NCBI GenBank assembly: GCA_964016885.1
Contig: OZ024760.1
Span: 14,942,001-15,006,000 of the forward strand
Length of the DNA: 64,000 nt
Direction of reading: 5' to 3'
DNA from: Eledone cirrhosa
Taxonomy: Eukaryota
The notes under the pieces are model-generated. The model saw only the letters and a list, made by a program, of their open reading frames with translations. It made no database searches and was not told where the DNA came from. Shown in pieces: positions 15,866 through 16,252 of the stretch (position 1 is the first letter of the stretch; every line of letters begins with the position of its first letter). The translations under genes were made by a program, and so were the position numbers.

Positions 15866-15901
<36 letters not shown>

Positions 15902-15926
15902 TGTAATAAACAACATAAGGCAATTA

Positions 15927-15988
15927 TTTCATTTACCAGTGGTTTCTTAAAAGCAACCAAATTTTTGCTTTTAATCATCAGAGTGAAA
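15927..15988 (-). ncRNA. Type I hammerhead ribozyme motif (family E, mirror copy)
   Basis: Minus strand reads TTTCACT CTGATGA TTAAAAGCAA-aaatttgg-TTGCTTTTAA GAAA CCACTGG TA AATGAAA. Core intact, one mismatch in stem I. Confidence 0.75.
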
Positions 15989-16052
15989 AAATCCTGGTGT
16001 ATTTATTGGCATTGGATTTTAAAATCCAATGCCAATAAATACACCAGGATTT

Positions 16053-16113
16053 TTTCATTCTGATGATTGAAAGCAAAATTTGTTTGCTTTTAAGAAACCA
16101 CTGGTAAATGAAA
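16053..16113 (+). ncRNA. Type I hammerhead ribozyme motif (family E)
   Basis: Stem I TTTCATT/AATGAAA (7 bp); core CTGATGA 16060-16066; 11-bp stem II TTGAAAGCAAA-atttg-TTTGCTTTTAA; GAAA 16094-16097; stem III CC-act-GG; GTA triplet with predicted cleavage after 16106. Confidence 0.85.
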
Positions 16114-16206
16114 TAATTGCCTTATGTTGTTTATTACATAACTATTAAGCTCTGTTACCTACACAGAGCACTCTTTTTTCCTGGACTTTTCCGACGGAAT
16201 TACTTC

Positions 16207-16252
<46 letters not shown>

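What the first reader, a model, noticed from the sequence alone, without database searches (positions are those of the whole stretch)
15895..16210. 250-bp palindrome encoding a full hammerhead on each strand
Seen: a spacer-less palindrome centred at 16020/16021. The plus strand has an intact hammerhead (7-bp stem I, 11-bp stem II, GUA site after 16106); the minus strand has a near-identical one (15927-15988). Differences between the arms include a G-U versus A-U pair in stem II and loop changes, with cores intact. It lies in the presumed intron ~4 kb upstream of the Dmrt exon, in sense orientation. Inference: in a read-through pre-mRNA the 125-bp hairpin would compete with and probably silence ribozyme folding, and would be a long dsRNA substrate for ADAR or Dicer. 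Transcripts starting in the AT-rich centre would self-cleave.
Basis: partly seen in the sequence, partly recalled or inferred. Interest (0 to 1): 0.8.

Follow-up and report, generated by a model that had tools for sequence, protein, structure and literature searches.

The report
Back-to-back retrotransposon ends with hammerheads
The palindrome is real but ordinary for this genome: it is two back-to-back copies of the hammerhead-bearing end of a Penelope-like retrotransposon present in over a thousand copies, likely made in one insertion event and likely not a gene-control switch.

Summary
The palindrome (15895-16145, centre 16020/16021, arms 96.8% alike) and both hammerhead cores are real. It is not a unique host element. 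Each arm is the 3' end (pseudo-LTR) of a young Penelope-like retrotransposon with the published Hydra-clade motifs. A 28-nt piece of the arm occurs 1,339 times in the genome, and 25 loci share this palindrome centre. One arm stops at a short end. The other runs on through a ~68-nt tail. Both ends join (TA)n. Head-to-head Penelope palindromes, one-sided tails and opposite-strand hammerhead pairs are all in print. The hammerhead has the short stem III type reported to need a dimer or protein. What this family adds is mechanism. 55 of 56 pairs with both standard ends had one short and one long end (2 long/long exceptions found later). Both arms share rare variants. Long ends carry (CA)n in 888 of 2,152 cases, short ends in 9 of 3,991. 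This fits twin priming on one RNA. Cleavage, transcription and editing were not tested.

The parts
15870..15897 (.). (TA)n target run on the left
   Evidence: Sequence; 58 of 75 short ends read straight into (TA)4
15895..16020 (-). Left arm: inverted, 5'-truncated pLTR copy ending at the short end; carries all 4 arm differences
   Evidence: best other genomic match 97%; the stem I change is in 1 of 119 arms
15927..15988 (-). Type I hammerhead, core intact, C-A mismatch in stem I; predicted cut between 15934 and 15933
16017..16024 (.). Self-complementary TTTTAAAA of the element, at which the two arms are joined (junction hotspot)
   Evidence: Present in non-palindromic copies; 25 loci share this centre
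16021..16145 (+). Right arm: pLTR copy, 100% identical to several dispersed copies
16053..16113 (+). Type I hammerhead: stem I 7 bp, stem II 11 bp, short near-palindromic stem III; predicted cut 16106/16107
   Evidence: same stem III shape as the Hydra-clade motifs in PMC8557442 File S2
16146..16213 (+). Tail (~68 nt): the element's 5' UTR sequence between the short and long ends
   Evidence: Runs on into the 5' UTR and ORF in full-length copies L048, L049, L050, L053, L056; ends cluster at arm positions 123-125 and 187-195
16210..16480 (.). (TA)n-rich target run on the right
   Evidence: Sequence
20148..21142 (+). Neighbouring last coding exon of a Dmrt gene (DMA domain); bystander

Best explanation
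This is a 5'-truncated, head-to-head insertion of a Penelope-like retrotransposon with Hydra-clade motifs, whose pseudo-LTR carries the hammerhead, and it was likely made by twin priming on one element RNA. Shown: each arm is the element's end; one stops at the short end and one at the tail end; both join (TA)n; they meet at a self-complementary 8-mer. Inferred: the GIY-YIG endonuclease nicks both strands of a (TA)n run. Each free end primes reverse transcription, one at each of the two internal start sites on the same RNA. The two cDNAs stop and anneal where the sequence is self-complementary, and repair fills in. The result is a dead copy with no ORF. Its hammerheads are passengers, predicted not to cut: they need a same-strand partner or the element's protein, and a read-through RNA would fold into a plain hairpin.
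For: Copy number: 1,104 candidates; 1,339 exact 28-mers; 25 loci with this centre, control 0. Parent: full-length copies run pLTR+tail, ORF, ~2.4-kb microsatellite-rich 3' UTR, pLTR, with RWK, DKT, YRDDG, CxCX5C, CxxC and CxH motifs as listed for Hydra (PMC8557442). End pairing: 40 of 41 pairs short+long; held-out set 15 of 17, the other 2 short plus a farther end; 14 of 14 on C1 0-105 Mb (overlaps earlier sets by at least 2). One template: arms of 46 pairs differ by 2.7 nt versus 5.1 when shuffled, 0 of 5,000 shuffles as low; 9 of 30 twice-seen variants sit in both arms of one insert, 0.13 expected. Either arm can reach further 5' (7 versus 7), which simple fold-back of a tailed cDNA cannot give. 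No constraint on cores: 1.38% changes versus 1.55% elsewhere. In vitro, an anole element extends both strands from two sites bounding the tail (PMC11167929).
Against: The rule is not absolute: one short/short pair and two true long/long palindromes among 186 long ends on C1. Shared rare variants could also come from later arm-to-arm conversion. The first pair set was chosen by likeness to the arm and by the centre pattern, and includes this locus; 8 of its 49 pairs had a non-standard end and were left out of the 41. No intact ORF was seen in the copies examined (longest open piece 502 aa). Pfam gave no RT or endonuclease hit, so the clade call rests on motifs. No read confirms this exact locus.
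Confidence: 0.88

Rival explanations
1. Same element, other route: the palindrome forms by self-priming (fold-back) of one cDNA or of an antisense RNA at a short internal palindrome, as proposed in PMC3846280.
For: Junctions fall at self-complementary spots, including hammerhead stem II. Shared rare variants and the two long/long palindromes fit.
Against: In 7 of 14 clearly asymmetric pairs the short-end arm reaches further 5' than the tailed arm, by up to ~3.5 kb, and in two the tailed arm is only the tail. A folded-back tailed cDNA cannot supply that, and a short-end cDNA has no tail to copy.
Confidence: 0.2
2. The palindrome has been taken over as a regulator of the Dmrt gene (ribozyme switch or editing hairpin).
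For: It lies 3.9 kb upstream of a same-strand Dmrt exon that starts at a splice acceptor; both cores are intact.
Against: The right arm is identical to dispersed copies. Both cores are intact in 23 of 33 such pairs anyway. The left stem I is broken. At least five other hammerhead-like palindromes of other families lie in this window.
Confidence: 0.03
3. The palindrome moves as a unit, like a hairpin MITE with a TA target.
For: 25 loci share the centre and most are about 320 bp between TA runs.
Against: The ends are unequal. Both subfamily alleles and two centre forms occur among the 25. Arms match within an insert rather than across inserts. Junctions vary from 0 to several kb in other pairs.
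Confidence: 0.04
4. Assembly or library fold-back artefact.
For: Perfect centre; the left arm's private bases were not seen in two reduced-representation read sets from other samples (for 15983: 13 of 13 and 8 of 8 reads had the family base).
Against: The arms differ at 4 places and end at different, biologically defined sites. The same shape recurs genome-wide and in print. Raw reads of both runs turn strand at 16017 (2 and 4 reads), weak support since libraries can make such chimeras.
Confidence: 0.03

Closest known systems
Hydra clade of Penelope-like elements (PMC8557442), e.g. Penelope-13_HM and Hydra-1_Obim
   Same: RWK, DKT, CxCX5C linker, C-terminal GIY-YIG-type endonuclease, (TA)n target, hammerhead with a 4-bp/1-nt palindromic stem III. 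Penelope-13_HM is listed with an inverted 5'-truncated copy and a hammerhead on each strand (Files S1, S2).
   Different: Unit is 4.7-4.8 kb rather than under 3 kb, owing to a microsatellite-rich 3' UTR; tail ~68 nt rather than 30-40; stem II is 11 bp.
Head-to-head inverted pLTRs of Adineta vaga Penelopes (PMC3846280)
   Same: Inverted pLTR, palindrome at the junction, tail on one of the two.
   Different: That paper proposed self-priming on an antisense template; the end statistics here favour twin priming.
Opposite-strand dual minimal hammerheads in Schistosoma (PMC4209133)
   Same: Pairs 100-700 bp apart on opposite strands, attributed to truncated elements; short stem III; no cleavage as a single motif.
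   Different: Mentioned there in one sentence without anatomy or counts.
PAc Poseidon element of the green anole (PMC11167929)
   Same: Two internal reverse-transcription start sites bounding the tail; both target strands cut and extended; AT-rich target; hammerhead needs protein and is dispensable for insertion in vitro.
   Different: Other clade; its tail lies in the ORF, here in the 5' UTR; start sites here have 3-5 nt of TA likeness to the target; pairing of the two sites within one insert was not reported in the parts read.
LINE-1 twin priming (recalled, no call)
   Same: Two target ends prime on one RNA and the cDNAs join by microhomology.
   Different: LINE-1 gives an inversion without duplication; here the start sites are 68 nt apart, so the same stretch is copied twice.
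Non-LTR retrozymes (bioRxiv 10.64898/2026.07.22.740005)
   Same: Type I hammerhead, derived from Penelope-like pLTRs, non-coding.
   Different: Retrozymes are head-to-tail tandem arrays that allow dimer cleavage; this is head-to-head.

Membership tests
Penelope-like element (EN+) | Single ORF with RT and C-terminal GIY-YIG endonuclease | tested here: met
   ATG-to-stop span 2.13 kb in L048/L049; motifs align with ~700-aa homologues. Copies are frameshifted; no Pfam hit.
Penelope-like element (EN+) | ORF flanked by pLTRs (partial tandem) | tested here: met
   Arm before and after the ORF, same strand, in L048, L049, L050
Penelope-like element (EN+) | Hammerhead inside the pLTR | tested here: met
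Penelope-like element (EN+) | Inverted 5'-truncated copy; tail at one end only | tested here: met
   tail ~68 nt, longer than the 30-40 bp in print
Hydra clade | RWK and DKT motifs; CxCX5C linker; CxxC and CxH near the C-terminus | tested here: met
   against the list
Hydra clade | CCHH motif absent from the endonuclease | tested here: inconclusive
   None seen by eye; the paper's figure defining it was not seen
Hydra clade | (TA)n insertion target | tested here: met
   3,982 short ends followed by (TA)n
Hydra clade | Generally short (<3 kb); a tendency, not a strict criterion | tested here: not met
   Hammerhead-to-hammerhead 4,657 and 4,812 nt
Hydra clade | Groups with named Hydra proteins in an RT tree | not tested
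   No named Hydra protein was held as a sequence
Type I hammerhead ribozyme | Core boxes, cleavage triplet, three stems | tested here: met
   Plus copy complete; minus copy has a stem I mismatch; no Rfam hit
Type I hammerhead ribozyme | Self-cleavage in Mg2+ | not testable with these tools
   Folding favours the dimer form: stem III duplex -8.2 versus hairpin +0.4 kcal/mol
Non-LTR retrozyme | Head-to-tail tandem units each with a hammerhead | tested here: not met
   Two copies, opposite strands
MITE | Equal terminal inverted repeats, copies descending from one unit | tested here: not met
   Unequal ends; arms track within inserts

The most novel reading that the evidence does not exclude
This family is a natural read-out of how Penelope-like elements integrate: one RNA is primed twice, once at each start site, and at the tail site the telomerase-related reverse transcriptase stutters and adds a variable (CA)n run before it elongates. 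The element would then mint both self-muting double-hammerhead hairpins (an estimated 170 or more) and new compound microsatellites (888 counted at tail ends).
Probability: 0.45. Interest if true: 0.6.

Novelty: new member of a known kind. Interest (0 to 1): 0.3.

Why it matters
For the scan: palindromes with a hammerhead on each strand between TA runs are a common by-product of Penelope-like insertion in this genome and should not be read as host riboswitches. For specialists: how these elements form inverted repeats and one-sided tails is named as open in PMC8557442. A young family with thousands of ends lets twin priming be tested against self-priming by counting. The (CA)n runs seen almost only at the tail end may be repeat addition by the sister enzyme of telomerase.

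Tried and rejected
Rfam: nothing at gathering score; weak hits were hairpin look-alikes. The repeat finder was swamped by microsatellites. Pfam and PDB sequence searches did not name the parent protein; homologues carry precomputed PF26215 and PF28514, whose names were not shown. No RNA holder was listed, which says nothing about expression. Small-share runs X6-X8 were not used. Contigs of X1 and X4 did not span the stretch. No DM-domain exon was found in the window or 120 kb upstream, where two assembly gaps lie. Lünse et al. on dimer cleavage was not held; it is cited through a review's passages (PMC6765202). Literature searches for twin priming or end pairing in these elements found nothing relevant, nor for repeat addition (listing only); subscription papers are not covered. 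The scan's earlier notes held nothing. Selection on the arm differences was rejected. One of three long/long candidates (L147) was a short+long pair beside a tandem copy.

Full report
Observation. Only the centre 16020/16021 gives continuous pairing; the arms are 96.8% alike. The minus copy (15927-15988) keeps the core but has a C-A mismatch next to it in stem I and loses that stem in its best fold. Stem III is A-U plus two C-G pairs round a 3-nt loop. Rfam does not call it.

It is a repeat. The right arm drew 1,104 candidates in the genome, of which 40 were scored, most at 95-100%. A 28-mer occurs 1,339 times. The palindrome centre occurs at 25 loci, reversed control 0. By my count of the first 100 places listed, 13 are head-to-head pairs under 300 bp apart; scaling gives roughly 170, an estimate.

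The parent. Walking 5' from the arm leads through a microsatellite-rich stretch to the end of an ORF. Of 20 stretches fetched round ORF matches, five have the arm plus tail just before the ORF. In L049 the hammerhead cores lie at 2761 and 7573, with ATG at 3026 and stop at 5154. All copies seen are frameshifted; the longest open piece is 502 aa. It has 1,747 homologues at E<=1e-10 among 7,998 scored. The alignment shows RWK, DKT, YRDDG, CxCX5C, CxxC and CxH, the features given for the Hydra clade (PMC8557442, section read). No tree with named members was built.

Two ends. Among 143 copies, 61 stop at a short end and 63 at a long end about 68 nt further on; 7 run into the 5' UTR and 12 stop elsewhere. 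This locus has a short left arm and a long right arm. Of 49 head-to-head pairs, 41 have both ends standard and 40 of these are short+long (one-sided p 2e-11 against a 50:50 null). A set picked by position gave 15 of 17, the other two short plus a third, farther end. On C1 0-105 Mb, 14 of 14 were short+long although short ends outnumbered long 100 to 47. The rule also holds for pairs kilobases apart, so hairpin instability does not explain it. Exceptions exist: one short/short and two long/long.

One template. In 46 pairs the arms differ by 2.7 nt against 5.1 when shuffled (0 of 5,000). Subfamily sites agree in 39-43 of 46 against 22-32 expected. Nine of 30 twice-seen variants sit in both arms of one insert, 0.13 expected. 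Conversion between arms could add to this. Where the junction is clearly lopsided, the short arm reaches further 7 times and the long arm 7 times; 32 pairs were within 10 nt and 9 ran beyond the reference.

Mechanism. Shown: identity of the arms, end types, TA flanks, junction at a self-complementary 8-mer. Inferred: both strands of a (TA)n run are nicked, each primes at one start site on the same RNA, and the two cDNAs anneal at the 8-mer. This follows the in vitro result that an anole element extends both strands from two sites bounding the tail (PMC11167929, main text parts 1-2 of 4 read). I put the identity at about 0.95 and twin priming over fold-back at about 0.75.

Ribozyme activity. 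The active monomer fold has probability 0.04 alone, 0.006 with flanks, 0.0003 in the whole arm and about 1e-49 in the palindrome; stem III pairs better between two molecules (secondary structure only). Single motifs of this type did not cleave (PMC4209133, parts 1-2 of 4 read), and the anole motif needed protein. Opposite-strand copies never share a sense RNA, so they cannot dimerise in cis. Across 119 arms cores carry 1.38% changes and non-ribozyme positions 1.55%; these arms were partly chosen by likeness, which lowers both figures.

Dmrt. A DMA exon lies at 20148-21142 on the same strand. Three DM domains were found in the genome, none on this contig. One on unplaced C1212 ends at a phase-1 donor that would fit this exon's phase-1 acceptor, and a gap lies 2.2 kb before the window. 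An intronic position is therefore plausible, not shown.

Reads. Two reduced-representation DNA runs and two contig sets were laid. The family is abundant in them. A few raw reads turn strand at the centre; none showed the left arm's private bases. No RNA run was listed.

What is known. Inverted 5'-truncated copies and one-sided tails: PMC8557442 (passages, one section, part 2 of 59 of the supplement). Head-to-head palindromes as the commonest form: PMC3846280 (passages). Opposite-strand hammerhead pairs 100-700 bp apart: PMC4209133. A Hydra element with a hammerhead on each strand: Penelope-13_HM. Retrozymes: bioRxiv 10.64898/2026.07.22.740005 (part 1 of 5; supplements closed). The host was not identified; a cephalopod is my guess from recalled repeat make-up.

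A lead. Tail ends are followed by (CA)n in 888 cases and (TA)n in 1,264; short ends by (CA)n in 9 and (TA)n in 3,982 (exact patterns, so lower bounds). The runs vary in length and mostly give way to (TA)n. The template there reads TACA. Stuttering by the enzyme or priming at TA/CA borders could each explain it. This locus has no CA run.

Verdict. Real, known in kind, probably inert. Interest 0.3, carried mostly by the family statistics.

Noticed in passing
G000 genome-wide; e.g. L149:420-460: Tail ends of this family carry a variable (CA)n run before the (TA)n target in 888 of 2,152 counted, short ends in 9 of 3,991. Possibly repeat addition by the reverse transcriptase.
   Followed up: partly
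window 14167-14360, 27224-27362, 34014-34161, 53251-53399, 58692-59287: Further head-to-head palindromes beside (TA)n, from at least two other families, with whole or truncated hammerhead-like motifs (full motifs at 14233 + and 53319 -). The outer arms at 58692-59287 are 100% identical over 224 nt.
   Followed up: partly
window 10104-10244, 31195-31361, 38599-38695, 41958-42437, 47118-47199: Other palindromes without a hammerhead core; 10104 and 47118 look related and have a one-sided extension.
   Followed up: no
G000:C1212:3627-3767 (L127) and window 20148: An unplaced DM-domain exon with a phase-1 donor may be the missing first exon of this Dmrt gene; an assembly gap lies at C21:14939601-14939800.
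   Followed up: partly
L136, L138: A third element end about 55 nt beyond the tail end, paired with a short end in both cases.
   Followed up: no
arm positions 49 and 71 (window 16069, 16091): The stem II pair is G-U in most copies and G-C in a subfamily (21 of 119), a change that keeps the pair.
   Followed up: partly
L049:5154-7500: The element's 3' UTR is about 2.4 kb of mixed TA/TG microsatellite, so each long insertion spreads microsatellite sequence.
   Followed up: no
L032:535-2849, L004, L023: Other Penelope-like ORF pieces with GIY-YIG-type motifs lie next to copies of this family.
   Followed up: no
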